Shown here: positions 2,563 through 29,910 of the stretch, one piece after another
Layout: each line of letters opens with the position of its first letter
Numbering within the stretch: the first letter of the stretch is position 1
Sequence record: MW882907
Direction: 5' to 3' (one strand)
DNA from: Escherichia phage vB_EcoM_SQ17
Length of the DNA: 64,000 nucleotides
Program-made: the position numbers and the translations under genes
The notes under the pieces: generated by a model
The model's input: the letters and a program-made list of their open reading frames with translations, nothing else
The model's database searches: none
Told to the model about the DNA's origin: nothing

Positions 2563-4131
2563 ATGACTACTATCAAAACTAAAGCTCAGCTCGTAGACAA
2601 ATGGAAAGAACTGCTGGAAGGTGAAGGCCTGCCGGAAATCGCTAATAGCAAGCAGGCTATTATCGCTAAAATCTTCGAAAACCAGGAAAAAGATTTCGAA
2701 GTATCCCCTGAATATAAAGACGAGAAAATCGCTCAGGCATTTGGTTCTTTCTTGACCGAAGCTGAAATTGGTGGTGACCACGGTTATAATGCTCAGAACA
2801 TCGCAGCAGGTCAAACCTCTGGTGCAGTAACCCAGATTGGGCCGGCAGTTATGGGTATGGTTCGTCGTGCTATTCCTAATCTGATCGCTTTCGATATTTG
2901 TGGTGTTCAGCCTATGAACAGCCCTACCGGTCAGGTATTTGCTCTCCGTGCAGTATATGGTAAAGACCCTATCGCTGCTGACGCTAAAGAAGCTTTCCAT
3001 CCGATGTATGCTCCAGACGCGATGTTCTCTGGTCAGGGTGCTGCTAAGAAATTCCCAGCTCTGGCTGCTAGCACACAAACCGTTGTAGGTGATATCTATA
3101 CTCACTTCTTCCAGGACACTGGTACTGTGTATCTACAAGCTTCCGCTGTAGTAACAATTGATGCTGGCGCTACCGATGCAACTAAATTAGATGCTGAAAT
3201 TAAGAAACAAATGGAAGCTGGTGCACTGGTAGAAATCGCTGAAGGTATGGCTACTTCTATCGCTGAACTTCAGGAAGGCTTCAATGGTTCTACCGACAAC
3301 CCGTGGAACGAAATGGGCTTCCGTATCGACAAACAAGTTATTGAAGCTAAATCTCGTCAGCTGAAAGCAGCTTACTCCATCGAATTGGCACAAGACCTCC
3401 GTGCAGTACACGGTATGGATGCTGATGCTGAACTGAGCGGTATTCTTGCTACTGAAATTATGCTGGAAATCAACCGTGAAGTTGTTGACTGGATTAACTA
3501 CTCCGCTCAGGTTGGTAAATCTGGTATGACTAATATCGTTGGTTCTAAAGCTGGTGTATTTGACTTCCAGGACCCGATTGATATCCGTGGTGCTCGTTGG
3601 GCCGGTGAAAGCTTTAAAGCTCTGTTGTTCCAGATTGATAAAGAAGCAGTTGAAATTGCTCGTCAAACCGGCCGTGGTGAAGGTAACTTCATTATCGCTT
3701 CCCGTAACGTAGTTAACGTACTGGCTTCAGTTGATACTGGTATTTCTTACGCTGCACAGGGTCTGGCTTCTGGTTTTAATACCGACACTACTAAATCTGT
3801 ATTTGCCGGTGTACTTGGTGGTAAATACCGCGTATACATCGACCAGTATGCTAAACAGGATTACTTCACCGTTGGTTACAAAGGTGCTAACGAAATGGAT
3901 GCAGGTATTTACTATGCTCCTTACGTTGCACTTACCCCACTGCGTGGTTCCGATCCTAAGAACTTCCAGCCGGTAATGGGCTTTAAAACTCGTTACGGTA
4001 TCGGTGTTAACCCGTTTGCTGAAAGTTCCCTGCAGGCTCCAGGTGCTCGCATCCAGTCCGGTATGCCGTCTATCCTGAACAGCCTTGGTAAGAACGCTTA
4101 CTTTAGACGCGTCTACGTTAAAGGAATTTAA
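2563..4131 (+). CDS. 23: Major capsid protein gp23
   Basis: 522 aa; N-terminal MTTIKTKAQLVDKWKELLEGEGLPEIANSKQAIIAKIFENQEKDF matches my recollection of T4 gp23. Confidence 0.97.
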   Translation: MTTIKTKAQLVDKWKELLEGEGLPEIANSKQAIIAKIFENQEKDFEVSPEYKDEKIAQAFGSFLTEAEIGGDHGYNAQNIAAGQTSGAVTQIGPAVMGMVRRAIPNLIAFDICGVQPMNSPTGQVFALRAVYGKDPIAADAKEAFHPMYAPDAMFSGQGAAKKFPALAASTQTVVGDIYTHFFQDTGTVYLQASAVVTIDAGATDATKLDAEIKKQMEAGALVEIAEGMATSIAELQEGFNGSTDNPWNEMGFRIDKQVIEAKSRQLKAAYSIELAQDLRAVHGMDADAELSGILATEIMLEINREVVDWINYSAQVGKSGMTNIVGSKAGVFDFQDPIDIRGARWAGESFKALLFQIDKEAVEIARQTGRGEGNFIIASRNVVNVLASVDTGISYAAQGLASGFNTDTTKSVFAGVLGGKYRVYIDQYAKQDYFTVGYKGANEMDAGIYYAPYVALTPLRGSDPKNFQPVMGFKTRYGIGVNPFAESSLQAPGARIQSGMPSILNSLGKNAYFRRVYVKGI

Positions 4132-4160
4132 TGCTTTAACGTTAAAATACATAACCTTAT

Positions 4161-4178
4161 GGGAGACTTCGGTCTCCC
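4161..4178. terminator. GC hairpin with UUCG loop downstream of gene 23 (gggagac-ttcg-gtctccc)
   Basis: Perfect 7-bp stem with tetraloop, followed by a T-rich run; sits between convergent genes. Confidence 0.7.
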
Positions 4179-4193
4179 ATTCTTGTTTCTATA

Positions 4194-4460
4194 CTATGCA
4201 ATCTTAACTCGGCGGTTGATGATATCACGGAAGTCAATACGATTTTCTTGGATTTTCAGCCAGTTACCAGATTTGTCTTTGGTATGGGTAGAATATTCAC
4301 CGTTCCACCAGAAGTCAGTTTCATAAGCCAGGGCTTCGTATTTCTTAACCAATGCATTAACTGCATTACCGTTAGGATTGGTACCAAATTTTTCTACCAG
4401 AGCTTTGATGTCTTTGTCAAGGTTAGAAAGTGTGGTACGGATAAAGTTTAATTTGTTCAT
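4194..4460 (-). CDS. Hypothetical 88-aa protein, antisense between genes 23 and 24
   Basis: ORF-track ORF trimmed to an internal ATG that has a GAGGAGA ribosome-binding site; early-promoter motif upstream. Confidence 0.5.
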   Translation of the reverse strand: MNKLNFIRTTLSNLDKDIKALVEKFGTNPNGNAVNALVKKYEALAYETDFWWNGEYSTHTKDKSGNWLKIQENRIDFRDIINRRVKIA

Positions 4461-4489
4461 TTTTAATCTCCTCATGTTTTGATAGGTCT

Positions 4490-4519
4490 ATAGTAACACA
4501 ACACTTTTTGTGTGTAAAC
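4490..4519 (-). promoter_or_regulatory. T4 early-type promoter (GTTTAC, about 18 nt, TACTAT) for the 88-aa ORF
   Basis: Minus strand reads GTTTACACACAAAAAGTGTTGTGTTACTATAG. Confidence 0.4.
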
Positions 4520-4525
4520 CACTTT

Positions 4526-4533
4526 TATAAATA
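4526..4533 (+). promoter_or_regulatory. T4 late promoter motif TATAAATA upstream of gene 24
   Basis: Exact TATAAATA about 30 nt upstream of the ATG; AAGGAAA ribosome-binding site follows. Confidence 0.6.
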
Positions 4534-4563
4534 AAATTATATTCTCAATAAGGAAAAAATGCA

Positions 4564-5847
4564 ATGAGTAAAATCCAAAAATTATTGCGTGAATCTACAA
4601 CGTCTATTAGCAACTCAATTGGTCGCCCAAATCTCGTTGCTTTGACTCGCGCTACGACTAAATTAATATATTCTGACATTGTAGCAACACAAAGAACTAA
4701 TCAACCTGTTGCTGCTTTTTATGGTATCAAATATCTTAACCCAGGCAATGAATTTACATTTAAAACTGGTGCTACTTATGCTGGCGAAGTTGGATATGTA
4801 GACCGAGAAAAAATTACTGAACTCACAGAAGAATCAAAAGTCACACTAAATAAAGGCGATTTTTTCAAATATAATAATATCGTCTATAAAGTGTTAGAAG
4901 ATACACCGTTTGCAGATATTCAAGAAAGTGATCTAGAATTAGCTCTTCAGATTGCGGTCGTTCATTTAAAGGTACGGTTATTTTCAGATGCAGCGGTAAC
5001 AAGCAAATTTGAAAGCTCTGATAGCGAAATTTCTGATGCAAGATTCCAGATTAATAAATGGCAAACTTCAGTCAAATCTCGTAAACTTAAAACCGGCCTC
5101 ACGGTTGAATTAGCGCAAGATTTGGAAGCGAATGGATTTGATGCCCCTAACTTCTTAGAAGATTTGCTTGCTACTGAAATGGCTGATGAAATTAATAAAG
5201 ATATTCTTCAGTCTTTAATTACTGTATCGAAACGTTATAAAGTTACTGGAATTACTGACACCGGATTTATTGACTTGAGCTATGCATCTGCTCCAGAAGC
5301 AGGTCGTTCATTATATCGAATGGTGTGTGAAATGGTATCACACATTCAAAAAGAGACAACTTATACTGCAACGTTTTGTGTAGCCTCAGCTCGTGCAGCT
5401 GCTATTCTTGCTGCTTCCGGTTGGTTAAAACATAAGCCAGAAGATGACAAGTATCTTTCACAAAATGCTTATGGATTCTTGGCAAATGGATTACCTCTTT
5501 ACTGCGATACCAACAGTCCGTTAGATTATGTTATTGTGGGTGTTGTAGAAAATATCGGCGAAAAAGAAATTGTAGGGTCCATCTTTTACGCTCCATACAC
5601 TGAAGGAGTAGATTTAGATGACCCGGAACATGTTGGTGCATTTAAAGTTGTAGTTGATCCAGAAAGCTTGCAACCGTCTATCGGATTATTGGTTAGATAT
5701 GCTTTATCAGCAAATCCTTACACAGTAGCAAAAGATGAAAAAGAAGCGAGAATAATTGATGGCGGGGACATGGATAAAATGGCAGGACGTTCAGACTTGT
5801 CTGTTTTACTCGGTGTTAAATTGCCAAAAATCATCGTTGATGAATAA
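4564..5847 (+). CDS. 24: Capsid vertex protein gp24
   Basis: 427 aa; close match to my recollection of T4 gp24 (paralogue of gp23). Confidence 0.95.
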   Translation: MSKIQKLLRESTTSISNSIGRPNLVALTRATTKLIYSDIVATQRTNQPVAAFYGIKYLNPGNEFTFKTGATYAGEVGYVDREKITELTEESKVTLNKGDFFKYNNIVYKVLEDTPFADIQESDLELALQIAVVHLKVRLFSDAAVTSKFESSDSEISDARFQINKWQTSVKSRKLKTGLTVELAQDLEANGFDAPNFLEDLLATEMADEINKDILQSLITVSKRYKVTGITDTGFIDLSYASAPEAGRSLYRMVCEMVSHIQKETTYTATFCVASARAAAILAASGWLKHKPEDDKYLSQNAYGFLANGLPLYCDTNSPLDYVIVGVVENIGEKEIVGSIFYAPYTEGVDLDDPEHVGAFKVVVDPESLQPSIGLLVRYALSANPYTVAKDEKEARIIDGGDMDKMAGRSDLSVLLGVKLPKIIVDE

Positions 5848-19856: not shown

Positions 19857-21944
19857 CTATCCTTGGACAAATTTAAACGGAACTGATTCTAAATCCATTA
19901 AAGATGCTAACAATTTCAATCCTTTAGGAGCACTAGTTTTTTCTACAAATGAGGAGAACGATACCGGCCCATCTGATTCGATTTCACCCGTCATAGCAAC
20001 CACATCGCCTGTTTCCATGAGAACATCACCATCGTAAATGACAGCTTCGTCCAACTGGTCCGAGGACATAACTTCGGCTTGAATAAATTTAAGGTTGGAT
20101 TCTAAACCTGCACCAGTGTCAGATGACGCATCTGTAATTTTATTTATCTGCAAGAGAATGCCTCTAGGCAAAATAATTTCTTGCTCATTAGGGTGATTAC
20201 TCAACTGTCCAGGATAAATCACGTTAACTTTATGAGCGCCATCAATAGCCCATCCAACGTTAACACGGATTTGTTCTGGTGCATGCATAGCTGTTCTTAC
20301 TTGACTAGGAGAAATAGTAACACCTTCGTCATTATTATCAATGTTAAGCTCTTTGCGAACTTCTTCAGGAGCAAGTCCAAGGGCAACGTTCTCTTTAAAC
20401 CCACCGAAAATAATAGGAGCTAGTGAAGTGGAAACATAGTTTCTGAAGTAGAATACCTTATTTTTAACCATTGCTTCGTAAATAGGCATTCTGATAGACT
20501 GAGCTCTATATAACGTTAGTCCTTCAGGTAAACGATCTCCATTTAAAAACGCCGAATCAAGACCATCAATAGCGCGTTTAACTTCATCTTCATCTGCAAC
20601 ATCGTAAAAATCTGGTTTATAACGACCTAACAGCATATTATTGATATCGGTATACGCAGAAGAGGCATATTCACGAATAGCTCGTTTTTCAGCAACAGAG
20701 TATTGATTAGGGACCCGATTCATTGTTATATTAAAGGTGCCTCTAGCCGATTCTCGTGCATAAGTATACATCACATTAGACAAGAACGCTGATTTACGTT
20801 GTTTCCAAGTTTTTTCAGATACTTCAGCTAAAACGTCGTCAGCCAGTTGGAAATTATCACGTCTAAAATCTTCAAACCATTCGTCTTTAATAGAGTCTGC
20901 AATTTCATTTGCAGCTTCAACAAAAGCAGCTAATGCTTTAACAGATGTTGTTTTTTCAGTTTTAATTTTCTTAGCAAACTTTTCTAAAGTTGGCTTAATA
21001 ACATCACCATAAGAAACTTCATCGGCAAATCTAAAGGATTCATCAATACGATTATAAATCTTATTTTCGATATCAGCAACTAAAGTGCCTTTTGCTGTGG
21101 ACGATGCTTGGGCTAGTACGATTTCATATGCTTCAGGAAGTAATTCGGCTGTAGCTGGGCCACTAACTTCTTTAGCAGAATTTTCGTATTTCTGGAATAA
21201 CTCACCTTCTTGTCGGTCAGCTTCTAAAGATTGACTTGCTGCAATAGCACGACGAGAAATTTTAGTACGAGCAATAACAGGCTTATCTTTACGTTTTTCT
21301 TCTACAGCAGCAATAGAACCAGCGATAGCCGTTTCTTTGGTGACCGTTTCGCCAGTCTTTTTACTCACATAAACTTCGCCAACATCAGAATCTACTTTCG
21401 TGTACAACTCTGTGTTAATGTTAGGGATGCCTTTAATATCTTCAATGTTAGCATTTTTACGAACCATCATCACATAGGTGTGTTTACCTGTGAATTGATA
21501 CATTGCTGACAATACTTTAAAACGGCCACCGGTTTTAGTAGAAACTAAACGAGCAAGAAGAGTTTGAAGTTGTTGTCCACGTCCTTTCAATTTCTTGGTA
21601 GGGAATCGGAACAGAACTGCATCCATACGAAGAGCTTTAACCTGTTCATATACTGTATTGAAAATGGTGTTGATTGCATCAATAGGAGCAGGACCAAGGC
21701 CATTTTTCAATTCAGCGAGATTACCCTTTTCAGACAGACTCATAATAACAACATGAGCGTATTTGTCGCCAAGTTTAACTTGTTTTACAGCATCGCCTTC
21801 AGAAAGGTAAGAGAATAAGCGAACTACGATGTTTGTATCAACATCACCAATTTTCCAGACTTGTGGAACTTTAGCTTTAGGGTTCAAATTGACGACAGGA
21901 AGACTGCCTTCAGATTCAAACACTTCATTCAATTGTTCAGACAT
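19857..21944 (-). CDS. alt: Alt ADP-ribosyltransferase (packaged head protein)
   Basis: 695 aa; position between 54 and 30; AAGGAAA ribosome-binding site; TATAAAT-like motif upstream. Confidence 0.8.
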   Translation of the reverse strand: MSEQLNEVFESEGSLPVVNLNPKAKVPQVWKIGDVDTNIVVRLFSYLSEGDAVKQVKLGDKYAHVVIMSLSEKGNLAELKNGLGPAPIDAINTIFNTVYEQVKALRMDAVLFRFPTKKLKGRGQQLQTLLARLVSTKTGGRFKVLSAMYQFTGKHTYVMMVRKNANIEDIKGIPNINTELYTKVDSDVGEVYVSKKTGETVTKETAIAGSIAAVEEKRKDKPVIARTKISRRAIAASQSLEADRQEGELFQKYENSAKEVSGPATAELLPEAYEIVLAQASSTAKGTLVADIENKIYNRIDESFRFADEVSYGDVIKPTLEKFAKKIKTEKTTSVKALAAFVEAANEIADSIKDEWFEDFRRDNFQLADDVLAEVSEKTWKQRKSAFLSNVMYTYARESARGTFNITMNRVPNQYSVAEKRAIREYASSAYTDINNMLLGRYKPDFYDVADEDEVKRAIDGLDSAFLNGDRLPEGLTLYRAQSIRMPIYEAMVKNKVFYFRNYVSTSLAPIIFGGFKENVALGLAPEEVRKELNIDNNDEGVTISPSQVRTAMHAPEQIRVNVGWAIDGAHKVNVIYPGQLSNHPNEQEIILPRGILLQINKITDASSDTGAGLESNLKFIQAEVMSSDQLDEAVIYDGDVLMETGDVVAMTGEIESDGPVSFSSFVEKTSAPKGLKLLASLMDLESVPFKFVQG

Positions 21945-21984
21945 AGCGTTTTCCTTTTAGTAATAATTTATATTTATGCCAAAA

Positions 21985-22000
21985 AGAGCCCGAAGGCTCT
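21985..22000 (-). terminator. Hairpin agagcc-cgaa-ggctct between the ligase operon and alt
   Basis: GC stem with CGAA loop, followed on the minus strand by TTTTT. Confidence 0.6.
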
Positions 22001-22188
22001 TAATCCACAATCGGGAGTAAAGTACGATAAACTTCAAAATTAGGGCCTTTTTCGTACTTATCAAAATTGTCCATAAAAATATGATAGGAATCGTTATTAG
22101 GAAAATCTAATACAATTTGTGAACAAGAGGTGGAAACATCACTACCGTCTTTATTAGTGACAACTACTGTTTCTAAATAAGCTTTCAT
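22000..22188 (-). CDS. Hypothetical 62-aa protein between ligase and alt
   Basis: Start trimmed to the ATG overlapping the ligase stop (TAATG). Confidence 0.4.
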   Translation of the reverse strand: MKAYLETVVVTNKDGSDVSTSCSQIVLDFPNNDSYHIFMDNFDKYEKGPNFEVYRTLLPIVD

Positions 22189-23681
22189 TATAAACCTGTC
22201 TGGGACCACGATCCAAATACGTCTTCAAATGAATCCGCTTCTGTTTTATCAAAACGGAACCCTTTAATAATTGGAAGGAAAATACCTACAGTACCTTCAC
22301 GGCCTTTAGAATGAACCCAACCATTACATTCACAATCAGCGATACGTCCAATTAATTTACCTTCACGAGCTTCGGTCATTAATCGTTCACGGTCTAAATC
22401 ATGACGCTCGTCTAAAGGAATAAGAACCTTTACACCGTCAACTGTTTTATGAGTTGTATCTTTAAACCCTGAACCACAATCGGTTGTAATACGACGACAA
22501 CGTGATACGAGTTCGACACCACCTAATTTGTTAGGGTCTTTAGAGTGTTCATAGTATCCTACAACTTCTAAAGCGATATCAATAACTTCTTTAAATTTAA
22601 TTAGGTTCTTAGAGCGTTTGTTTTCCCAATATGAATCACGGTTTTTAAGGATAATACCTTCAAGACCTTGGTCAACATATTTTTTATAAACCACTTTAGC
22701 TTCGTCAAGATTACGAACTAACTGATTTTCAATTGGCTCAATTCGCTTAAAGCCTTCAGCCATATTTTCAAGAGCAGCAAAACGAACATCGTATTTCTGA
22801 CCTTTAATTTTGCCATCAGAATAGACTTCATCTAAAGGAACATAGTCCCAGGCTTGAAGAATCATACCTTCCGCTTCTTTAGGAGAAATAGTCCCCTGAA
22901 GAGATTTATTTGCTAAACCATTTGAAGTGCTACGGTCTGCAACTTGTACTTCTTCGGATTCTTCATTGTCACCAAATAAGAACGACAGGTCGTTTCCTGA
23001 GCTCACAGCCTTTTTAATATCGAATGAATGATAAACTAATTCACCATCGATTAAAACCCCATTAGGGTGTCTTTCACGAGCTTCTTTAGTCATTTCCATT
23101 AGTTCATCAGCTAATAGAGTAAGTCCATGGTATTCGTTACCGGCACGAGAAAAGAATTGAACACCATCATCGCGAACTTCGGCGAAACAACGAGCACCAT
23201 CTGCTTTTAATTGGGCAAATGCAGGCCATTTAATATTTTTAGTAATCAATTTCTCATCATATGCAGATGCTAACATCTGTGGTTGCAATTGAATAAGTCC
23301 AGGCCACACCTTATTAGCAATAGACACTGAAGCACCTACTTCAAGGTCGCGCATCATTACACGACGAAGGACTTCTACATCATCGGGTTTACCATCAGCG
23401 ATATAACCCATGAGCTCTTTAATTGCAGCGTTACCAGTGAGTTTACGAGTGGCTAATGTGAACTCAATAAAATCCAACATGTCATCTAATTCAAGAAGTC
23501 CATACGCTTGAGACCTTTCACCCGGCCCTGGCCATTTCTTAATATAATACTGGATACCACGTGCATATGTTAAACGATACACACGTTCAAGTAATTTGTT
23601 GTCCTTATTTTTCTTAAGGATTTCTTGTTTTGTTTTAGTAGAACCGATCGCAGCTATTTGGTTTAAAATATCTAAAATCAT
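22188..23681 (-). CDS. 30: ATP-dependent DNA ligase gp30
   Basis: 497 aa; adenylation motif KADGAR; N-terminus MILDILNQIAAIGSTKTKQ resembles T4 ligase. Confidence 0.95.
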   Translation of the reverse strand: MILDILNQIAAIGSTKTKQEILKKNKDNKLLERVYRLTYARGIQYYIKKWPGPGERSQAYGLLELDDMLDFIEFTLATRKLTGNAAIKELMGYIADGKPDDVEVLRRVMMRDLEVGASVSIANKVWPGLIQLQPQMLASAYDEKLITKNIKWPAFAQLKADGARCFAEVRDDGVQFFSRAGNEYHGLTLLADELMEMTKEARERHPNGVLIDGELVYHSFDIKKAVSSGNDLSFLFGDNEESEEVQVADRSTSNGLANKSLQGTISPKEAEGMILQAWDYVPLDEVYSDGKIKGQKYDVRFAALENMAEGFKRIEPIENQLVRNLDEAKVVYKKYVDQGLEGIILKNRDSYWENKRSKNLIKFKEVIDIALEVVGYYEHSKDPNKLGGVELVSRCRRITTDCGSGFKDTTHKTVDGVKVLIPLDERHDLDRERLMTEAREGKLIGRIADCECNGWVHSKGREGTVGIFLPIIKGFRFDKTEADSFEDVFGSWSQTGL

Positions 23682-23947
23682 TTGATGTCCTCGATTTTGG
23701 TTACGGTTCTATTATAAGCCACTTCATCTAGAAGCGATTTCAGCGTTTTCTGATAAGTGGTAATCCATTTACCGAGACCTTCAACATAATATTCTGAAAT
23801 GTAGATGAACCCTTGTTCAACACACTCTTTAAATATTTCTGCGTCTTTTACTAAACGAAACATTGGCCAGTCTCGAAAGAACATGTTAACGTGACCGTAG
23901 TCACGCGTTGTGTTTTTGCCATCTGTAATATCATGAACTACAAACAT
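23678..23947 (-). CDS. Hypothetical protein (T4 30.1-like position)
   Basis: 89-aa ORF; ATGA overlap with the ligase start. Confidence 0.5.
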   Translation of the reverse strand: MFVVHDITDGKNTTRDYGHVNMFFRDWPMFRLVKDAEIFKECVEQGFIYISEYYVEGLGKWITTYQKTLKSLLDEVAYNRTVTKIEDIK

Positions 23948-23956
23948 AATTAACCC

Positions 23957-24772
23957 TTAACAATTTGTAGACCAAGTCCATTTGGACGAATCTAAAGGAA
24001 AGTTTTGAATCGTCCACCACGGCTGCATATCGGTTGGTCCTGGGGTTCGCCAGGTATATGGATTCGACGGACCGCCAATTTGATTAGGCCCTGCGCCTGG
24101 ACTTGTTGTACCAGATTCTTTAAGCAAATCCGCCAATCGTTTTAAAAGGTCTTCACGATCTGAATCTGAATTATGCTCGGGTGGAACCAAACGAGATTCA
24201 ATATCATCCCACGTGTGTACACGTTGTGCAGTACGAGGAATGGCATCACGTTCACCACGAGCCAACCAATAAATTGGTACATTAAGAATTTCTGCCGCAT
24301 GGTCACAGTGATGAGCTAAATCGTCAACGTAACAAATCACGTTATATTTTGTTTTAGCTAGTTCGAATAATTGTTCCTTTGAAGAATCATGACCACACAT
24401 CATTACTTCAGAGAAAGCGCCTGGGAACAAAGCATTCAAATTAAATTGTCTATTCAATCGAGCATCAATTGAATCACCTAGCGCCGTCACGGCTACAAAA
24501 TTATAGTCTTCTTTTAGTTTATTGATAACTCGAAGAGCATCAGAATAAGGCGCTAAGTAACGAATAAAATCAGAGCGATTATATTTTTCTATTAATTGTT
24601 TACCGAGGTTATCGTCGGTATTGAATAGTTTACCAGGAGAAATAAATTTTTCGTCCTGAATCATTTTTAAAATATGTTCTAATGGAAGATTATATTTTTG
24701 GGCAAAATAAGGAAGTCCAGATTGCCAGCTTAAACATACACCATCAATATCAGTCAAAATAGTAGGTTTCAT
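23957..24772 (-). CDS. HAD-superfamily hydrolase-like protein (T4 30.2-like position)
   Basis: 271 aa; N-terminal ILTDIDGV (HAD motif I DxDG) and later YVDDLAHH. Confidence 0.55.
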   Translation of the reverse strand: MKPTILTDIDGVCLSWQSGLPYFAQKYNLPLEHILKMIQDEKFISPGKLFNTDDNLGKQLIEKYNRSDFIRYLAPYSDALRVINKLKEDYNFVAVTALGDSIDARLNRQFNLNALFPGAFSEVMMCGHDSSKEQLFELAKTKYNVICYVDDLAHHCDHAAEILNVPIYWLARGERDAIPRTAQRVHTWDDIESRLVPPEHNSDSDREDLLKRLADLLKESGTTSPGAGPNQIGGPSNPYTWRTPGPTDMQPWWTIQNFPLDSSKWTWSTNC

Positions 24773-25236
24773 AAAGAGTCTCTTAATAGGTTTAACACAT
24801 CAATAAATTCAGCTTCGGTTAGTATTGTATCATCTTTTGTTAGACCGCTAGCCATGCTGTGCTTCAAAATTTTTCCTTTAGAGGCTTGTAAGGCATCACG
24901 AAACCCCTTGTTTTGGATCGCGGCTTCAAAATATGCATTTGTGTATAATTCTTTCCACGCTTCAGAGTATCTTGAAAATGGAACTCCTAACCAGAAGAGA
25001 GTCCCACGGTCCTGAGCTCTTGCATAAGACCTTCCGGCTTGCTGTGCAGCCAATCCAGACAACCTAAATATACGTTTTTGTTGTTCAACATTTTTCACCT
25101 TACATCCTTGGAGAAATCCTTCAAGTCCTCCGAATTGAATACCATCCATAACAAAAGGCCATTGAGCAAAGTTACTTAATGCACATGACGGCCATGGAAA
25201 ATTGCTTCTTATTTCTAATTCAGACATCTTTAACAC
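24769..25236 (-). CDS. YbiA/NADAR (DUF1768)-like protein (T4 30.3-like position)
   Basis: 155 aa; SNFAQWPFVMDGIQF...EGFLQGCK resembles the YbiA/NADAR signature SNF..WP..DG...E..fQ..K. Confidence 0.45.
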   Translation of the reverse strand: MLKMSELEIRSNFPWPSCALSNFAQWPFVMDGIQFGGLEGFLQGCKVKNVEQQKRIFRLSGLAAQQAGRSYARAQDRGTLFWLGVPFSRYSEAWKELYTNAYFEAAIQNKGFRDALQASKGKILKHSMASGLTKDDTILTEAEFIDVLNLLRDSL

Positions 25237-25438
25237 TTATAATTTCAATATCAGCCCAATGGCCGTATCCAGGTATACGGTCTTCGATAGATAAATTTCC
25301 GCCATTTTTAGGTATTTTAATTGACGTAACGTATGGTTCTAAACGGTTTTCTGAATAATATGGAAAAACGTCTGTTACACGATAAGTAACTTCGATCATT
25401 TCCGTACCAAACAATTTCCGGATTAATTTATTCAACAT
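25220..25438 (-). CDS. Hypothetical small protein
   Basis: 72-aa ORF in the compact 30.x-like array. Confidence 0.4.
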   Translation of the reverse strand: MLNKLIRKLFGTEMIEVTYRVTDVFPYYSENRLEPYVTSIKIPKNGGNLSIEDRIPGYGHWADIEIISVKDV

Positions 25439-25625
25439 GTTTCAACCCTTTAATAGGAGATAACTCTTTACCCATACGTATGTCAGAAGTCCCATCAACC
25501 CATTGAACAGCATACGCTTCATTGATAATTCCAGCAGTGGTTTTAAATTCACGGAGAACTTTAAAAATCATCCCAGGAATTCCAACACCTTTTAATTGAA
25601 CTGTTTGTGCTATTAAAAATTTCAT
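25428..25625 (-). CDS. Hypothetical small protein
   Basis: 65-aa ORF in the compact 30.x-like array. Confidence 0.4.
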   Translation of the reverse strand: MKFLIAQTVQLKGVGIPGMIFKVLREFKTTAGIINEAYAVQWVDGTSDIRMGKELSPIKGLKHVE

Positions 25626-25679
25626 ATTTTTCCACTTACTAAAGAAATCATTATACTCTAATCCGTCCTTGGATATAAA

Positions 25680-25964
25680 CTACTTAACGAAATTAATTTC
25701 TACCGGATGAACAACAGGTTGAGCAGTGATATATTGAGTAATTGCTTTCAAGACTAGAGCTTCAGACCCAGGATTTTTCTCAACGAATTCACGTGCTTGG
25801 TTATGAGCTTCAAGTTCACTTAGTAAACCACTTCGTTGGCATCCACGGTCTTGAGTACCCTGTTCAGATAAAAAGACGACGATGTATTTTTCTTCATCGT
25901 CATACGGTTTAGACGGTTGAGCAAATGTTCCTTTACTTCCAAAAGGAGAGTTATGACGCCGCAC
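25680..25964 (-). CDS. Hypothetical ORF with no ATG start, overlapping the previous ORF by about 145 nt
   Basis: 94-aa protein-like ORF; ORF-track start is GTG with no ribosome-binding site; possible frameshifted continuation. Confidence 0.3.
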   Translation of the reverse strand: MRRHNSPFGSKGTFAQPSKPYDDEEKYIVVFLSEQGTQDRGCQRSGLLSELEAHNQAREFVEKNPGSEALVLKAITQYITAQPVVHPVEINFVK

Positions 25965-26296
25965 ACGCCGTGAGGAGTTTCAACCTTCGTATATTCGTGT
26001 GGACCATTTTTCTTAGTTTCTTGATGTGGAACTTCGTAGACCTTAGGGTTAGGACATTCAATAAAATGCTCATCTAAATCGGTCGAGAATATTAAAGTAA
26101 AACAATTACTAAATTTACCAACACCTGCCTGATAAATTTTACCTTCAGAAGTTCTAATTTCACAAACCGAGCCGGCATCAGTAACTTCTAAAACTTCAAA
26201 AGGCTCGATAAGGTCATATGAGAACATGTTTTTAAGGCGTGGAGTAATATCCCCATTTTTAAAATTCATTTTATAAAAAGTATTAACTTTAAACAT
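25820..26296 (-). CDS. Hypothetical protein; 3' part overlaps the next ORF in another frame
   Basis: 158-aa ORF; good upstream context (hairpin, then GAGGAAATT ATG). Confidence 0.45.
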   Translation of the reverse strand: MFKVNTFYKMNFKNGDITPRLKNMFSYDLIEPFEVLEVTDAGSVCEIRTSEGKIYQAGVGKFSNCFTLIFSTDLDEHFIECPNPKVYEVPHQETKKNGPHEYTKVETPHGVCGVITLLLEVKEHLLNRLNRMTMKKNTSSSFYLNRVLKTVDANEVVY

Positions 26297-26331
26297 AATT
26301 TCCTCAGTGGGAGCCGAAGCTCCCAGTTAAA

Positions 26332-26697
26332 TTAGATATCGAATTCGTTAAGAACTACATCAAAGATTGCTTCCAGGTGTTCAGGTTTAGCTCGGTTGCT
26401 CAGGATATGACGAATCCAAGTTTTAACCAGAAGTTTACGATTAACACCATTCCAGAAAGGATGAGTACCTAAATCACGTTGACGGAAATCATCATCTAAT
26501 GCAATTTTGAAGTTGGAACCTTCCATCGTGATTGAAACCGTGATGCCATTTTCAAATCGCATATAAACGTAATTAGGAGTCATATACTGCTCAATTTCGC
26601 ATACTGAGCCGTTATTATGCTTCCATAAGCAAATTGTATCGATAGAACCAGCAATACCGTTAGAAACATATTTACGTTCGAAGTTGATGTAGTTCAT
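26332..26697 (-). CDS. Hypothetical protein (T4 30.8-like position)
   Basis: 121-aa ORF preceded by an early-promoter motif. Confidence 0.5.
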   Translation of the reverse strand: MNYINFERKYVSNGIAGSIDTICLWKHNNGSVCEIEQYMTPNYVYMRFENGITVSITMEGSNFKIALDDDFRQRDLGTHPFWNGVNRKLLVKTWIRHILSNRAKPEHLEAIFDVVLNEFDI

Positions 26698-26804
26698 TTT
26701 ATTCTCCAGATGTTTAAGTTGTTTGTTGGTACAAGTCTATAGTAACACATCCTACAGGAGAGTAAACATCTTTTTTAAACTTTTTCTGCCCTAAACGCAC
26801 AAAA

Positions 26805-26822
26805 GGGAGACCGAAGTCTCCC
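26805..26822 (-). terminator. Hairpin terminator gggagac-cgaa-gtctccc
   Basis: Perfect 7-bp stem with tetraloop; T-rich tract follows on the minus strand. Confidence 0.65.
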
Positions 26823-26827
26823 TAAAA

Positions 26828-27007
26828 TTATGCAACAACCTTTCCAAAACGAGAAGCATCATCTCGAAGAACTGCACGTGCTCTGCGCATGATCTTCTCA
26901 ACTGTTTGATTAATACGAGAGTTCGACCCACGCTTGTATCCAGCGCGTTTAGAGGTACCATCAACTTTCTTTTCTACTGCTTTCTTTGCTTTAGCTTGTT
27001 TTGCCAT
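26828..27007 (-). CDS. Small basic protein, 59 aa (T4 30.9-like position)
   Basis: Hand-translated MAKQAKAKKAVEKKVDGTSKRAGYKRGSNSRINQTVEKIMRRARAVLRDDASRFGKVVA; reading checked against the overlapping plus-strand ORF. Confidence 0.4.
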   Translation of the reverse strand: MAKQAKAKKAVEKKVDGTSKRAGYKRGSNSRINQTVEKIMRRARAVLRDDASRFGKVVA

Positions 27008-27275
27008 TATAAATTCTCTTTAAATGAAAATGCAGGACTTATTGACATTGCCTGCTCAAGCCCTCAAGGGGAACATAGGTTTTGGATATTTAACGACAGG
27101 ATAACCATAAACCCGTCATCATACCGACCACGACTTAGACAGATAACCTTTTTCTGACGCGTGATAGTACAAAATACATTCAAGAGGTACACCGTAAAAT
27201 TGTCGGGGCGGTACTTCTAAAACATATCGATTCGCAAATCGATAATCAGACAATTCGACGGCTCCTCGATTTAAC

Positions 27276-27524
27276 TTACTTCAGGGTAATAACAAAATGA
27301 CGAACTGCTTTACGTGCTGCAGAAGCCAGAGGCTTAGCATATTTCAATTCATCTTTCTGGACCAGGATATCGCGAAGATCGGCTTGTGCTGGATTCAGAT
27401 GTTTGAAATACTGTAAGATTTCAAGAGCTTCGGCTTCAACATCAATAGATGCGCCGTAATTGTCATGGCCATTATTCCATGCATGGCGTTGCAGTTCAAG
27501 AGCGTGTTGTAATTGTTTAATCAT
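27276..27524 (-). CDS. rIII: rIII lysis-inhibition accessory protein
   Basis: 82 aa, same length as T4 rIII and immediately downstream of gene 31. Confidence 0.65.
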   Translation of the reverse strand: MIKQLQHALELQRHAWNNGHDNYGASIDVEAEALEILQYFKHLNPAQADLRDILVQKDELKYAKPLASAARKAVRHFVITLK

Positions 27525-27648
27525 TTTAAATTCTCAATTCGAGATAATATTTAGTAGCCACGTTCTTCTGAATTTCACTTTCTTTCGACAAGTCTCTCAG
27601 TTGTAGGCTACCGCTTAGAAGAGTGTTCTCTTCATATAGTTATTTATA

Positions 27649-27981
27649 TCACTTATAAAGACATGGAATAGCTTTATAGTGGCATGTTACGAATTTCTGT
27701 TTAATTTCTTTAGGTTGTTTAAGACCTAAAGCCACAAATGGATGTGGAACATTTCGAATTTGTCCAACTGGTAGTGGAGTCAAATCACCGACTTCAACAA
27801 AACCTTCAGGAACATCAGGACCTACAGAATGAACTACACATAGTTCAGGAACTTCACCTTGAACACGTTTACCAATCACAAGTCCTGATTCTGTAACTTC
27901 TTCATCACCTGCTTGAGCGGGTTCAGAAACCAGAATGACATATTCACCAACAGCACGAATTGGGAGTTGTACTTCAGACAT
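27649..27981 (-). CDS. 31: Co-chaperonin gp31 (GroES analogue)
   Basis: 110 aa; [28 protein letters not shown]... matches my recollection of T4 gp31. Confidence 0.9.
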
Positions 27982-28038
27982 CTTATTTCCTTGTTGTTTG
28001 ACGATAGATTAATAATATCATACTATTCGTAAAGCATA

Positions 28039-28347
28039 TTACATAAGAAGCAAACTTTCCACCGGAGTACCATCAACCGAAATTACTTTATCAAGGCGGA
28101 AAGAACGCCACTGACCTAACTTGGTGTCGAATGCTCGAACTGATTCACGAGGTTCATAACGAACTTCTGTTGCTGGATTGTTATTTTCATATTTGACTTC
28201 AAGTTCATCGCGCGAAGCAAACATAGTGCGTACCTCGCCGTTAGCCTTTTCAAATACAACACAATGAACGCCTACAGACAGAATAGTTTTAATACGTTCA
28301 CGAAGAACCATAGTTTCTTGTTCAGTTAAAATCATATTATTCACCAC
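28039..28347 (-). CDS. Hypothetical protein (T4 31.1-like position)
   Basis: 102-aa ORF between gene 31 and cd. Confidence 0.5.
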   Translation of the reverse strand: MVNNMILTEQETMVLRERIKTILSVGVHCVVFEKANGEVRTMFASRDELEVKYENNNPATEVRYEPRESVRAFDTKLGQWRSFRLDKVISVDGTPVESLLLM

Positions 28348-28918
28348 AAAAGTTTCGGATTTGTTCCCAATTCAGAGAACGAAGATTATTACGAGAGTAC
28401 TGAATTACTTCAATACCGGCTTGTTTTAGAATGTCTGCCCAATTTTCAGGAGATCGATCGTATAATTCTGCGTATACAACCTTTTTAATACCTGACTGAG
28501 TAATAGCTTTAGTGCAATCAGGACATGGAGAAAGCGTCGTATATAACGTAGCACCTTCAATAGAATTACCTTTACGAGCTGCAAACAAAATTGCATTCAA
28601 TTCTGCATGGATTTCATTATTAGCAGACCATGCACTATGAGCGGCCCGATGTTCTTTAGCCAAAACAAAATTATCTGCCCGTCCAAATGCTGTAGTGCCT
28701 TCTTTATGTCCAGCAACGATGACCGGGCTTGGTTTATTCTTCAACCAACCATTTTCGGATGCATGTTCACAACAGTTAACGCCACCTGCTGGTGAGCCAT
28801 TATATCCAGTAGAGATAATGCGTCCATCTTTTTCAATGACGGCACCAACTTTCCATGAACAACATTTTGATTCTTGAGAAATCAGATATGCAATCTGAAG
28901 GTATGTGCTAGCTTTCAT
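28337..28918 (-). CDS. cd: dCMP deaminase
   Basis: 193 aa; zinc-binding HAELNAI and PCxxC motifs. Confidence 0.9.
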   Translation of the reverse strand: MKASTYLQIAYLISQESKCCSWKVGAVIEKDGRIISTGYNGSPAGGVNCCEHASENGWLKNKPSPVIVAGHKEGTTAFGRADNFVLAKEHRAAHSAWSANNEIHAELNAILFAARKGNSIEGATLYTTLSPCPDCTKAITQSGIKKVVYAELYDRSPENWADILKQAGIEVIQYSRNNLRSLNWEQIRNFCGE

Positions 28919-29910
28919 TATTGAACCTTATTAATATAAGTTAACAGCTCTTTAGTTTGTTCCCAACTGATGCACGCATCGGTAACGGAAACGCCATAGG
29001 ACATATTATCAGAAATTTTTTGATTTCCTTCATGTAGGAATGATTCTATCATAATTCCTTTGACCAAATCATTAGCTGCTAAATTTTTACCAATACCAAT
29101 TTGATTGCTATAATACCCATCAGCGTTTGCATGGCTACAGTCAACCATTACATAATGATTCAGACCTACTGCCCTTGCTTTGTTAGAAGCTTCTTGAATA
29201 TCAGAAGAATGATAGTTCGGGCCGTTAGTCCCGCCACGCAATACGATATGCGTATTCTGATTACCTTCAGCTTCAACAATGCCTACAGTACCATCGACGT
29301 CCATACCCATATACCGATGAGGCCAGGCGGCACTATACATCGCGTCTGTAGCTACTTTAATAGAACCATTGGTTGCGTTCTTGAAGCCTACGCACATCGG
29401 TAGACCTGAAGCAATTTCACGATGTGTCTGACTTTCAGTCGTACGGGCGCCAATAGCAACCCATGAGAAAATACCAGAAAGATACTTAATCGTGAATGGG
29501 TCTAATACTTCAGTTGCTAATGGAAGTCCCATACGTAGAAGTTTACGACACAATGTTCGTGCAACTATAAGACCGTGGTTCATATCAAAACTTCCGTCAA
29601 GATATGGATCATTTACAAGACCTTTCCAACCTACGGTAGTTCGAGGCTTTTCAAAATAAACGCGCATCACTAACAGAACATTAGGAAGATGAGTTTGAAG
29701 TTCAGCCAGACGTTTGCCGTATTCAACAGCAGCAATAGGGTCATGAATTGAACAAGGACCTACAACAATAAGTTTGCGTGGGTCTTCACCATTCATAATC
29801 GAATTAACTTGTTCGCGATGAGAAGCCACTTGTGATGCGTAAGCTTCCGACAAAGGAATAATCTCAGCCAGTTCTTTTGGAGAAATAAGTTTTCTGATGA
29901 CAGGTAACAT
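28918..29910 (-). CDS. 3-deoxy-D-arabino-heptulosonate 7-phosphate (DAHP) synthase, class I AroG/AroF/AroH type
   Basis: 330 aa; LIVVGPCSIHD, VYFEKPRTTVGWKGL, AIGARTTESQ(T)HRE, SHAN, ESFLHEGNQ and SVTDACI motifs are all present. Confidence 0.85.
   Translation of the reverse strand: MLPVIRKLISPKELAEIIPLSEAYASQVASHREQVNSIMNGEDPRKLIVVGPCSIHDPIAAVEYGKRLAELQTHLPNVLLVMRVYFEKPRTTVGWKGLVNDPYLDGSFDMNHGLIVARTLCRKLLRMGLPLATEVLDPFTIKYLSGIFSWVAIGARTTESQTHREIASGLPMCVGFKNATNGSIKVATDAMYSAAWPHRYMGMDVDGTVGIVEAEGNQNTHIVLRGGTNGPNYHSSDIQEASNKARAVGLNHYVMVDCSHANADGYYSNQIGIGKNLAANDLVKGIMIESFLHEGNQKISDNMSYGVSVTDACISWEQTKELLTYINKVQ

What the first reader, a model, noticed from the sequence alone, without database searches (positions are those of the whole stretch)
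23957..25236. HAD-like hydrolase and NADAR/YbiA-like protein encoded next to DNA ligase, upstream of the Alt ADP-ribosyltransferase
The 271-aa ORF begins with a HAD motif I (ILTDIDGV) and has a later DD motif, suggesting a phosphatase or nucleotidase. The adjacent 155-aa ORF has the SNFxxWP...DG...E..fQ..K signature of the YbiA/NADAR (DUF1768) family, whose members hydrolyse N-glycosidic and ADP-ribose linkages. Their co-location with ligase and Alt suggests a role in nucleotide salvage or in reversing ADP-ribosylation, which could matter for counter-defence.
Basis: inference. Interest (0 to 1): 0.55.

Follow-up and report, generated by a model that had tools for sequence, protein, structure and literature searches.

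The report
Known anti-DarT NADAR plus uncharacterised phosphatase
These are the T4-like phage genes 30.3 and 30.2: the first is AdfN, a known enzyme that strips ADP-ribose off phage DNA to defeat the bacterial DarTG1 defence, and the second is a conserved, apparently active, nucleotidase-like phosphatase whose role is still unknown and which published T4 data show is not needed for that counter-defence.

Summary
Both ORFs and both motif sets sit at the stated coordinates on the minus strand of a Mosigvirus (T4-like) genome.

**The 155-aa ORF.** It really starts at the ATG at 25227, giving 152 aa. It is the orthologue of T4 gp30.3, also called AdfN, at 96% identity. It is full length and keeps E36, K43 and H123. 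It matches Pfam PF08010 at 1e-68, and its model matches only YbiA and NADAR structures. AdfN is a published DNA ADP-ribosylglycohydrolase that counters DarTG1.

**The 271-aa ORF.** It is T4 gp30.2.
- It has a confident capped HAD fold over residues 1-200 and a disordered, variable tail.
- All four HAD catalytic motifs are invariant in 40 homologues.
- It belongs to a large phage family that grades into the NT5C 5'(3')-deoxyribonucleotidases.
- The most likely activity is a Mg-dependent (deoxy)nucleotide monophosphatase.

**Linkage.**
- Its conserved neighbour is DNA ligase (70 of 75 loci), not the NADAR (37 of 76).
- Published T4 Tn-seq shows that gene 30.2 is non-essential and irrelevant to DarTG1 resistance.

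A joint ADP-ribose-reversal role with ligase or Alt is not supported. The finding is ordinary and mostly already explained. The substrate and role of gp30.2 remain open.

The parts
24769..25227 (-). Gene 30.3 (adfN): a 152-aa NADAR-superfamily DNA ADP-ribosylglycohydrolase, full length, with E36, K43 and H123
   Evidence: 96% identical to T4 gp30.3. Pfam PF08010 at E 1.2e-68. AlphaFold2 pLDDT 95.7. The Foldseek hits are YbiA 2b3w and the NADARs 8bau and 8bat only. The function of the T4 orthologue is published.
25228..25236 (-).
   Evidence: T4 and phage mogra annotate the ATG start, giving 459 nt. The alignment starts at MSELEIR.
24188..24772 (-). Gene 30.2, residues 1-195: a capped (C1) HAD phosphatase domain. 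Motif I is D8/D10, motif II is T96, motif III is K132, and motif IV is D150/D151. The helical cap spans roughly residues 16-86, with W16, S18, F43, F50, Y64, N65 and S67 invariant.
23957..24187 (-). Gene 30.2, residues 196-271: one helix (203-220) followed by a Pro/Trp/Gly-rich tail predicted to be disordered. The tail is variable or absent in other genera.
   Evidence: pLDDT is about 50 over residues 221-271. The alignment shows that many homologues end near residue 200.
24769..24772 (-). ATGA overlap of the 30.3 stop codon with the 30.2 start codon (translational coupling)
   Evidence: Read directly from the sequence. T4 has the same overlap.
25220..25227 (-). 8-nt overlap (ATGTCTGA) of the end of 30.4 with the start of 30.3
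   Evidence: Sequence. T4 has the same overlap. In T4 Tn-seq, insertions in 30.4 are mildly depleted on DarTG1, which fits a polar effect on 30.3.
23678..23947 (-). Context: gene 30.1 (DUF3045), lying between 30.2 and ligase
   Evidence: Pfam PF11243 at E 2e-26.
22188..23681 (-). Context: gene 30, the ATP-dependent DNA ligase, which is the conserved downstream neighbour of 30.2
   Evidence: Pfam PF01068. Ligase lies on the same strand within 2 kb downstream of 30.2 in 70 of 75 loci.
19857..21944 (-). Context: alt, the ADP-ribosyltransferase
   Evidence: Pfam PF03496 at E 4e-28.

Best explanation
The region holds two adjacent, translationally coupled genes in the early-region gene 30 cluster of a Mosigvirus. 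They are the orthologues of T4 genes 30.3 and 30.2. They do different jobs.

**(1) gp30.3 is AdfN.** It is a NADAR-fold ADP-ribosylglycohydrolase. During infection of a DarTG1 host, the DarT1 toxin ADP-ribosylates guanine bases in phage DNA and blocks replication. AdfN hydrolyses the N-glycosidic bond between ribose and guanine, releases ADP-ribose and restores replication. These steps were shown for T4 AdfN. They are inferred here from 96% identity, intact E36, K43 and H123, and an intact C-terminus. RB69, in the same genus, has a frameshift that removes the last 15 residues and is sensitive to DarTG1.

**(2) gp30.2 is a capped HAD phosphatase.** It belongs to a phage family related to the NT5C 5'(3')-deoxyribonucleotidases. 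The inferred mechanism has these steps:
- D8 attacks the phosphate of a phosphomonoester and forms an aspartyl-phosphate.
- D10 acts as general acid and base.
- T96, K132 and probably R108 hold the phosphate.
- D150 and D151 bind Mg2+.
- The helical cap, including W16 at the position of the base-stacking Phe of cdN and mdN, closes over a small substrate, most likely a (deoxy)nucleoside monophosphate.

gp30.2 is not part of the anti-DarTG1 mechanism.

**My probabilities.**
- gp30.3 is an active AdfN: 0.95.
- gp30.2 is a catalytically active HAD phosphatase: 0.85.
- Its substrate is a nucleotide: 0.55.
For: **gp30.3**
- Pfam PF08010 at 229.7 bits against a cutoff of 36.
- 96% identity to T4 gp30.3 over all 152 residues.
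- Family invariants S18, N19, F20, E36, G37, F38, Q40, K43 and H123.
- The family profile hits YbiA 2b3w at E 6e-4.
- The AlphaFold2 model has pLDDT 95.7, and Foldseek returns only YbiA, 8bau (a NADAR with ADP-ribose bound) and 8bat.
- Published genetics and biochemistry for T4 AdfN. Deletion of adfN sensitises T4 and T2 by four logs. The E36A and K43A mutants are inactive. The purified protein removes ADP-ribose from DNA. The RB69 truncation is inactive.
- In vitro hydrolysis of guanosine-ADP-ribose, with His named as the catalytic residue specific to phage NADARs.
- Tn-seq log2FC of -7.25 on DarTG1.

**gp30.2**
- Confident HAD model.
- Foldseek top hits are cdN, mdN and 3bwv, at E of about 1e-8.
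- All four HAD motifs are invariant in 40 homologues at 38-74% identity.
- dN/dS is 0.10 against T4.
- The family has 1068 clusters at 50% identity.
- 37 of 105 distant members hit Pfam NT5C, with a best E of 4e-10.
- The broad profile hits the deoxyribonucleotidase-like 3bwv over its full length at E 1.9e-5. After that come Sdt1, XMP phosphatase, mdN and cdN.
- A profile-profile comparison of the T4-like group with the marine-phage group gives probability 100% and E 1.7e-53.
- The motif I region aligns as DGVCLSWQSGL against DGVLADFESGL of cdN.
- Distant members sit in replication and nucleotide-metabolism modules with RNR, PolB, RNase H, PhoH and the clamp loader.
- A phage NT5C enzyme (PBS1 Dtm) is a proven dTMP phosphatase.

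**Independence from AdfN**
- T4 Tn-seq shows 30.2 at -0.12 (p 0.61) on DarTG1.
- gp30.3 lies within 2 kb upstream of gp30.2 in only 37 of 76 loci.
- In Aeromonas phage AS-gz the two genes are 100 kb apart.
Against: - The window protein itself does not reach any Pfam HAD or NT5C gathering score. HAD_2 scores 15.5 bits against a cutoff of 23.8, and NT5C is not reported. The nucleotidase assignment therefore rests on transitive homology and fold, not on a direct family match.
- No substrate or phenotype is known. T4 gene 30.2 tolerates insertions at all 72 TA sites and shows no effect in M9 medium or on DarTG1.
- The NADAR gene is followed by a HAD or NT5C gene, with overlapping stop and start codons, in T-even and KVP40-like phages. 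The two genes are adjacent in Acinetobacter phages. This could still reflect some shared biology.
- AdfN activity was not measured for this particular protein, which has six substitutions relative to T4.
Confidence: 0.8

Rival explanations
1. gp30.2 works with DNA ligase on nucleic-acid ends. It would act as a 3'-phosphatase that cleans nicks before sealing, like the HAD phosphatase domain of T4 Pnkp or of mammalian PNKP.
For: - Ligase is the conserved downstream neighbour, on the same strand within 2 kb, in 70 of 75 loci across many genera.
- An unrelated viral contig pairs a 25%-identical homologue with a small ATP-dependent ligase 600 nt downstream.
- One metagenomic protein fuses a domain that PHROGs annotates as 'DNA polymerase' (phrog_24943) to this HAD domain.
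Against: - gp30.2 has a roughly 70-residue helical C1 cap between motifs I and II. From general knowledge of the HAD superfamily, HAD enzymes that act on macromolecules, such as Pnkp, lack a cap.
- Pnkp ranks well below the small-molecule HADs.
- Most distant homologues have no ligase nearby.
- Gene order in T4-like phages is conserved in general, so adjacency is weak evidence.
- In T4, gene 30 is essential but 30.2 is fully dispensable.
Confidence: 0.1
2. gp30.2 is a partner of AdfN. It would process ADP-ribose-derived products, or make AdfN effective in vivo. That would explain why AdfN alone cannot detoxify DarT1 in uninfected cells.
For: - The stop and start codons of 30.3 and 30.2 overlap by 4 nt here and in T4.
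- The same order, NADAR then HAD or NT5C, recurs in Acinetobacter phages and in KVP40-like Vibrio phages where ligase is elsewhere.
- AdfN alone does not rescue cells from DarT1 and barely rescues T5 or Bas25.
Against: - T4 Tn-seq on DarTG1 gives 30.2 a log2FC of -0.12 (p 0.61) against -7.25 for 30.3.
- Purified AdfN alone removes ADP-ribose from DNA.
- The two genes are unlinked in about half of the loci.
- From general knowledge, HAD chemistry does not fit cleavage of the pyrophosphate in ADP-ribose.
Confidence: 0.04
3. gp30.2 is a HAD phosphatase for a substrate that is not a nucleic-acid precursor. Candidates are a sugar phosphate, or a cofactor-related nucleotide such as NMN, NaMN or FMN (NAD or flavin metabolism).
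For: - A 30%-identical paralogue in KVP40-like phages lies close to, and divergently transcribed from, nadV (nicotinamide phosphoribosyltransferase).
- The yeast nucleotidase Sdt1/SSM1 appears among the profile hits.
- JGI labels family members 'FMN phosphatase YigB'.
Against: - The only full-length sequence-profile hit in the PDB is a deoxyribonucleotidase-like protein. The commonest Pfam hit in the family is NT5C.
- The motif I flank matches cdN.
- The gene is near-universal in Straboviridae, whether or not the phage carries nadV or glycosylates its DNA.
Confidence: 0.2

Closest known systems
T4 AdfN (gp30.3), anti-DarT factor NADAR
   Same: Orthologue with 96% identity and the same 152-aa length. 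It has the same catalytic E36 and K43, the phage-type His123, the same genomic position and the same overlap with 30.4 and 30.2.
   Different: It has six substitutions (for example R11P, R51K, G55R and P89E). It sits in a Mosigvirus whose DNA is probably arabinosyl-hmC rather than glucosyl-hmC; this rests on the RB69 statement. Its activity has not been measured.
DarG1-type NADAR antitoxins and E. coli YbiA (NADAR superfamily, PF08719)
   Same: Same fold, since Foldseek returns only 2b3w, 8bau and 8bat. Same SNF...E..Q..K active-site signature.
   Different: It is a stand-alone phage gene with no DarT partner. It has His where DarT-linked NADARs have Asp and YbiA has Glu. Sequence similarity to YbiA is marginal (E 0.25 for the single sequence). 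Phage AdfN does not work as an antitoxin in uninfected cells.
NT5C family 5'(3')-deoxyribonucleotidases: human cdN and mdN, S. epidermidis 3bwv, and the phage PBS1 dTMP phosphatase Dtm
   Same: Same capped HAD fold, and these are the best Foldseek hits. Same DxDGV motif, with an aromatic residue six positions after the second Asp and a following SGL. Same size of about 195 residues. There is a profile-level link. There is precedent for a phage enzyme of this family acting on a dNMP.
   Different: - Identity is only 14-19%.
- The window protein does not reach the PF06941 threshold.
- R108 and N111 replace the K..W residues of the NT5C helix.
- It has an extra helix and a disordered C-terminal tail of about 50 residues.
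- The substrate is unknown.
T4 Pnkp 3'-phosphatase domain (HAD, capless)
   Different: Pnkp has no cap and acts on polynucleotide ends (from general knowledge of the enzyme). gp30.2 has a large helical cap and scores better against small-molecule HADs.

Membership tests
Phage gp30.3 / AdfN clade of the NADAR superfamily | Match to Pfam PF08010 (Phage_30_3) above the gathering score | tested here: met
   229.7 bits against a cutoff of 36, E 1.2e-68, covering profile positions 2-138 of 138.
Phage gp30.3 / AdfN clade of the NADAR superfamily | YbiA/NADAR fold | tested here: met
   The AlphaFold2 model has pLDDT 95.7. The only meaningful Foldseek PDB hits are YbiA 2b3w (E 3.5e-5), NADAR 8bau and NADAR 8bat.
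Phage gp30.3 / AdfN clade of the NADAR superfamily | Catalytic Glu and Lys (E36 and K43 in T4 AdfN) and the phage-specific His in the last strand | tested here: met
   E36, K43 and H123 are present and invariant in 41 homologues. Their roles come from the papers.
Phage gp30.3 / AdfN clade of the NADAR superfamily | Intact C-terminus (the RB69 frameshift that removes 15 residues inactivates the protein) | tested here: met
   The protein is 152 aa, and its last 13 residues (residues 140-152) are identical to T4's.
Phage gp30.3 / AdfN clade of the NADAR superfamily | Hydrolysis of guanine-linked ADP-ribose on DNA, and rescue from DarTG1 | not testable with these tools
   Shown only for the T4 and T2 orthologues.
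HAD superfamily phosphatases | Rossmann-like HAD core fold | tested here: met
HAD superfamily phosphatases | The four catalytic motifs: DxD, S/T, K and (D/E)D | tested here: met
   D8/D10, K132 and D150/D151 are invariant, and T96 is nearly invariant, in 40 homologues. In the wider family of 105 sequences, K132 is invariant and D8, D10 and D151 are conserved in at least 90%.
HAD superfamily phosphatases | Pfam HAD model above the gathering score | tested here: not met
   HAD_2 scores 15.5 bits against a cutoff of 23.8, E 0.019. The sequence is too divergent for the generic models.
NT5C 5'(3')-deoxyribonucleotidase family (PF06941) | Match to PF06941 above the gathering score | tested here: not met
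   - The window protein has no NT5C hit at E <= 1.
- 9 of 40 close homologues hit weakly, with a best E of 0.002.
- 37 of 105 distant family members hit, with a best E of 4e-10.
- The link is transitive, through hhalign at E 1.7e-53.
NT5C 5'(3')-deoxyribonucleotidase family (PF06941) | Closest structural neighbours are NT5C enzymes | tested here: inconclusive
NT5C 5'(3')-deoxyribonucleotidase family (PF06941) | Aromatic residue after motif I that stacks on the base (Phe in cdN and mdN; this role is recalled from the literature, not tested) | tested here: met
   W16 aligns with the Phe of DGVLADFESGL in cdN. It is invariant in the T4-like group and conserved in at least 90% of the wider family.
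NT5C 5'(3')-deoxyribonucleotidase family (PF06941) | Phosphatase activity on 5' or 3' deoxyribonucleotides | not testable with these tools
   I found no biochemical data for any gp30.2 homologue. A search for 'gp30.2' returned 0 papers.

The most novel reading that the evidence does not exclude
gp30.2 could be a conditionally important nucleotidase. It might remove a specific nucleotide that matters only in hosts or conditions not yet tested, such as a defence-made toxic or signalling nucleotide, a chain-terminator monophosphate, or dead-end 3'-dNMPs from host DNA breakdown. That would explain three facts together:
- A catalytically intact enzyme is kept in about 1,440 T4-like phage genomes.
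- It sits next to a proven anti-defence gene.
- It has no phenotype in E. coli K-12.

Nothing here excludes this reading. Nothing here supports it specifically either.
Probability: 0.15. Interest if true: 0.6.

Novelty: already known. Interest (0 to 1): 0.2.

Why it matters
**Practical value.** This Mosigvirus carries an intact adfN, unlike its relative RB69. It should therefore resist DarTG1, which is relevant to host-range prediction for therapeutic T4-like phages.

**Open point.** gp30.2 is found in about 82% of phage records that carry a T4-type ligase. All its catalytic residues are conserved, yet it has no known substrate or phenotype. Defining its substrate would fill a gap in the otherwise well-mapped nucleotide metabolism of T4.

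**Caution.** The analysis also shows that sitting next to an anti-defence gene does not by itself imply a shared function.

Tried and rejected
1. **Single-sequence searches of gp30.2.** Searches against Pfam, NCBIfam and PDB sequences gave only sub-threshold hits. A profile of close homologues was no better. A broader 105-sequence profile was needed.
2. **A joint AdfN and gp30.2 mechanism.** I considered this because of the ATGA overlap, the recurring NADAR-then-HAD gene order, and the reported failure of AdfN in uninfected cells. I rejected it on the T4 Tn-seq data and on the unlinked arrangement in about half of the loci.
3. **General HAD-ligase linkage outside T4-like phages.** I found one independent case (contigs L084 and L085, which are identical in this region). 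Six other contexts showed replication or nucleotide modules without a ligase. The linkage is therefore not general.
4. **A link to Alt.** I rejected this because AdfN acts on DNA guanine-ADP-ribose, alt lies on the opposite strand in Acinetobacter phages, and alt shows no DarTG1 phenotype.
5. **Promoter and terminator scan of 21900-27700.** The counts did not exceed shuffled controls, so I make no regulatory claim.
6. **Fusion partners of distant homologues.** Only one was informative, a domain that PHROGs annotates as 'DNA polymerase' (phrog_24943).
7. **Literature searches.** Searches for gp30.2, for HAD with T4, and for the 30.1/30.2/30.3 genes together found nothing on gp30.2 function.
9. 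**Active-site geometry.** Model coordinates are not exposed to scripts, so I could not measure the geometry of the active site.
Full report
**What the window is.** The region 23600-25700 is 96-98% identical at the DNA level to many Escherichia and Shigella phages such as S143_2, SSE1, phi25-307 and mogra. Mogra is classified as Straboviridae, Tevenvirinae, Mosigvirus. Gene order on the minus strand matches T4:
- alt (19857-21944)
- an alt.1-like ORF
- ligase, gene 30 (22188-23681)
- 30.1, DUF3045 (23678-23947)
- the 271-aa ORF (23957-24772)
- the 155-aa ORF (24769-25236)
- 30.4, 30.5, then 30.7, gene 31 and cd

The finding therefore covers the orthologues of T4 genes 30.2 and 30.3.

**Checking the observation.** Both ORFs and both motif sets are present as described. 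Two details need correction.
- The 155-aa ORF begins at a GTG. T4 and mogra use the ATG three codons downstream, giving 152 aa at 24769-25227.
- Gene 30.1 lies between the HAD gene and ligase.

The genes are tightly packed. The end of 30.4 overlaps the start of 30.3 by 8 nt. The stop of 30.3 overlaps the start of 30.2 as ATGA. A promoter and terminator scan gave no more hits than shuffled sequence.

**The 152-aa protein is AdfN.**
- It matches Pfam PF08010 (Phage_30_3) at E 1.2e-68.
- It is 96% identical to T4 gp30.3 over the whole length.
- In an alignment of 41 homologues down to 35% identity, S18, N19, F20, E36, G37, F38, Q40, K43 and H123 are invariant.
- The family profile hits E. coli YbiA at E 6e-4.
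- The AlphaFold2 model has pLDDT 95.7. Its only meaningful matches in the PDB are YbiA and two NADAR crystal structures, one with ADP-ribose bound.

The literature settles the function.
- Johannesman, Carlson and LeRoux (bioRxiv 10.1101/2024.07.11.602962) renamed 30.3 as adfN.
- They showed that deleting it sensitises T4 and T2 to DarTG1 by four logs.
- E36A and K43A abolish function.
- The purified protein removes ADP-ribose from DarT1-modified DNA.
- RB69 is DarTG1-sensitive because a frameshift removes the last 15 residues.
- A Toxins 2024 paper (PMC11125620) showed hydrolysis of guanosine-linked, but not thymidine-linked, ADP-ribose. It also notes that phage NADARs carry His at the distinguishing catalytic position.
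- A T4 transposon-sequencing study (bioRxiv 10.1101/2025.11.20.689424) found that 30.3 insertions are lost on DarTG1, with log2FC -7.25.

The window's copy is full length with all these residues. It is therefore predicted to be active, unlike the copy in RB69, which belongs to the same genus. This part of the finding is correct and already known.

**The 271-aa protein is gp30.2, a capped HAD phosphatase.** Direct sequence searches are weak. HAD_2 scores 15.5 bits, below its cutoff. The best PDB sequence hit is a marginal match to mouse cdN. The protein does match the function-unknown PHROG 420 at E 5e-77.

Homologues occur throughout the T4-like phages at 40-96% identity. They share a conserved core of about 200 residues. 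The C-terminal tail varies and is absent from many.
- D8, D10 and G11 (motif I), K132 (motif III) and D150/D151 (motif IV) are invariant. T96 (motif II) is nearly invariant.
- A striking set of cap residues is also invariant: W16, S18, L20, F43, F50, Y64, N65 and S67, along with R108 and N111.

The AlphaFold2 model is confident for residues 1-200. It shows a helical cap between motifs I and II, one further helix at 203-220, and a disordered tail.
- Foldseek puts the 5'(3')-deoxyribonucleotidases cdN and mdN and the deoxyribonucleotidase-like 3bwv at or near the top, with the lowest rmsd.

**Link to NT5C.**
- An exhaustive profile search finds 1068 clusters at 50% identity at E <= 1e-3. Most are stand-alone proteins of about 195 aa.
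- Of 105 distant members, 37 hit Pfam NT5C individually, with a best E of 4e-10.
- A profile of them hits 3bwv over its full length at E 1.9e-5. The next hits are other nucleotide phosphatases.
- A profile-profile comparison of the T4-like group with the marine-phage group gives probability 100% and E 1.7e-53.
- Around motif I, gp30.2 reads DGVCLSWQSGL against DGVLADFESGL in cdN. From my memory of the cdN and mdN structures, that Phe stacks on the substrate base. W16 occupies its position.
- A phage NT5C-family enzyme (PBS1 Dtm) has been shown to be a dTMP phosphatase.

I therefore conclude that gp30.2 most probably works by standard HAD aspartyl-phosphate chemistry on a small, probably nucleotide, phosphomonoester. 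The window protein itself fails the PF06941 threshold, so I do not file it as an NT5C member.

**What gp30.2 is linked to.** I examined 78 IMG/VR loci.
- Ligase follows on the same strand within 2 kb in 70 of 75 loci with enough flanking sequence.
- gp30.3 lies within 2 kb upstream in only 37 of 76.

Specific cases:
- In Aeromonas phage AS-gz, 30.2 abuts ligase while 30.3 sits 100 kb away, next to nrdAB.
- In phiR1-RT, 30.3 sits near the dNMP kinase gene and the tRNA genes.
- In KVP40-like Vibrio phages, 30.3 is followed, with a 4-nt overlap, by a 168-aa genuine NT5C protein (PF06941, E 6.5e-11). Ligase is elsewhere.
- Those phages also carry a 190-aa paralogue close to, and divergently transcribed from, nadV.
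- More distant homologues lie in replication or nucleotide modules with PolB, RNR, RNase H, PD-(D/E)XK nuclease, PhoH and the clamp loader.
- One contig pairs the homologue with a small ATP-dependent ligase.

In the INPHARED collection, T4-type ligase occurs in 1761 records, gp30.2 in 1441 and gp30.3 in 1510. Both are thus near-core genes of Straboviridae, and much of the adjacency is inherited gene order.

The T4 Tn-seq tables give these results for gene 30.2:
- Insertions were recovered at 72 of 72 TA sites, so it is non-essential.
- On DarTG1 its log2FC is -0.12 (p 0.61).
- In LB against M9 its log2FC is -0.10 (p 0.61).
- It is not mentioned among hits in the main text.

In the same DarTG1 sheet, alt is unchanged at -0.01. 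gp30.2 is therefore not needed to reverse DarT1 ADP-ribosylation, and the neighbourhood with ligase and Alt says nothing about ADP-ribose biology. The mild depletion of 30.4 insertions on DarTG1 (-1.79, q 0.014) fits a polar effect on the overlapping 30.3.

**Rivals.**
- *DNA-end 3'-phosphatase serving ligase.* The ligase adjacency and one fusion with a domain annotated as DNA polymerase favour this. The large cap and the lack of ligase near most distant homologues count against it.
- *AdfN helper.* This is essentially refuted.

**Novelty and verdict.** Both genes are known T4 genes. The NADAR's mechanism and counter-defence role were published in 2024-2025. The HAD gene has already been labelled HAD-like or '5' nucleotidase' in some phage records. 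What remains unknown is the substrate and biological role of gp30.2. I score the finding low. It is correct in its observations and right about the NADAR. It is not new, and its proposed joint function is not supported.

Noticed in passing
window 24769-25227 compared with its neighbours 22188-28918: Synonymous divergence from T4 is mosaic. For adfN dS is 0.51, for 30.7 it is 0.67 and for gene 31 it is 0.58. For ligase, 30.1, 30.2, 30.4 and cd it is about 1.5 to above 2, which is saturated. adfN is an island of low divergence between saturated genes. This suggests fairly recent exchange of this counter-defence gene between Tequatrovirus and Mosigvirus. The estimates are noisy for such short genes.
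   Followed up: partly
window about 24864-25091, minus strand (equivalent of T4 ORF 30.3'): T4 annotates an internal out-of-frame ORF, 30.3', inside gene 30.3. In the window the same frame carries an in-frame stop (...LSSG*EFHF...). The ORF is therefore not conserved and is probably not a real gene.
   Followed up: yes
window 25680-26296, minus strand: A single-base deletion relative to phage mogra splits a 204-aa gene (mogra_65) into overlapping 158-aa and 94-aa ORFs. This is either a pseudogene or a sequencing error.
   Followed up: partly
window 28918-29910, minus strand: A class I DAHP synthase (PF00793, E 8e-75) lies next to the dCMP deaminase gene, where T4 has cd.1 to cd.5. It is found in 212 phage records, is common in Mosigvirus and is already annotated there.
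   Followed up: partly
L007 4001-4959 (Vibrio phage D481); L004 and L005 around 4000-4580: KVP40-like phages keep a NADAR gene followed, with a 4-nt overlap, by a compact 168-aa NT5C-family nucleotidase next to gene 47. They also have a separate 190-aa gp30.2-like HAD that is divergently transcribed from nadV and lies near radical-SAM genes.
   Followed up: partly
proteins P0154 and P0143 (metagenomic homologues of gp30.2): P0154 fuses an N-terminal domain that PHROGs annotates as 'DNA polymerase' (phrog_24943) to the HAD domain. By eye it looks like a nucleotidyltransferase. P0143 carries a C-terminal extension containing a GRHR motif that, by eye, resembles ParB-like domains. No profile hit supports that.
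   Followed up: partly
window 23957-24187 (gp30.2 tail) and alignment A3, columns about 400-450: Many genera share a short C-terminal motif, roughly G-I-E-Y-L-x-x-Q/R-P-T, in the otherwise variable disordered tail. The window has a different Trp-rich ending (QPWWTIQNFPLDSSKWTWSTNC). It could be a docking motif.
   Followed up: no
literature: PMC11125620, Methods section: The paper lists its 'E. coli T4 phage NADAR (gp30.3)' construct as residues 1-208, whereas T4 gp30.3 is 152 aa. The PHROG 652 profile is 296 positions long, and the window protein matches only positions 126-272. Some family members may therefore carry an N-terminal extension.
   Followed up: no
T4 gene 30.4 (window equivalent 25220-25438): In the published T4 Tn-seq, insertions in 30.4 are depleted on DarTG1 (log2FC -1.79, q 0.014). 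This is probably a polar effect on the overlapping adfN rather than a function of 30.4 itself.
   Followed up: no
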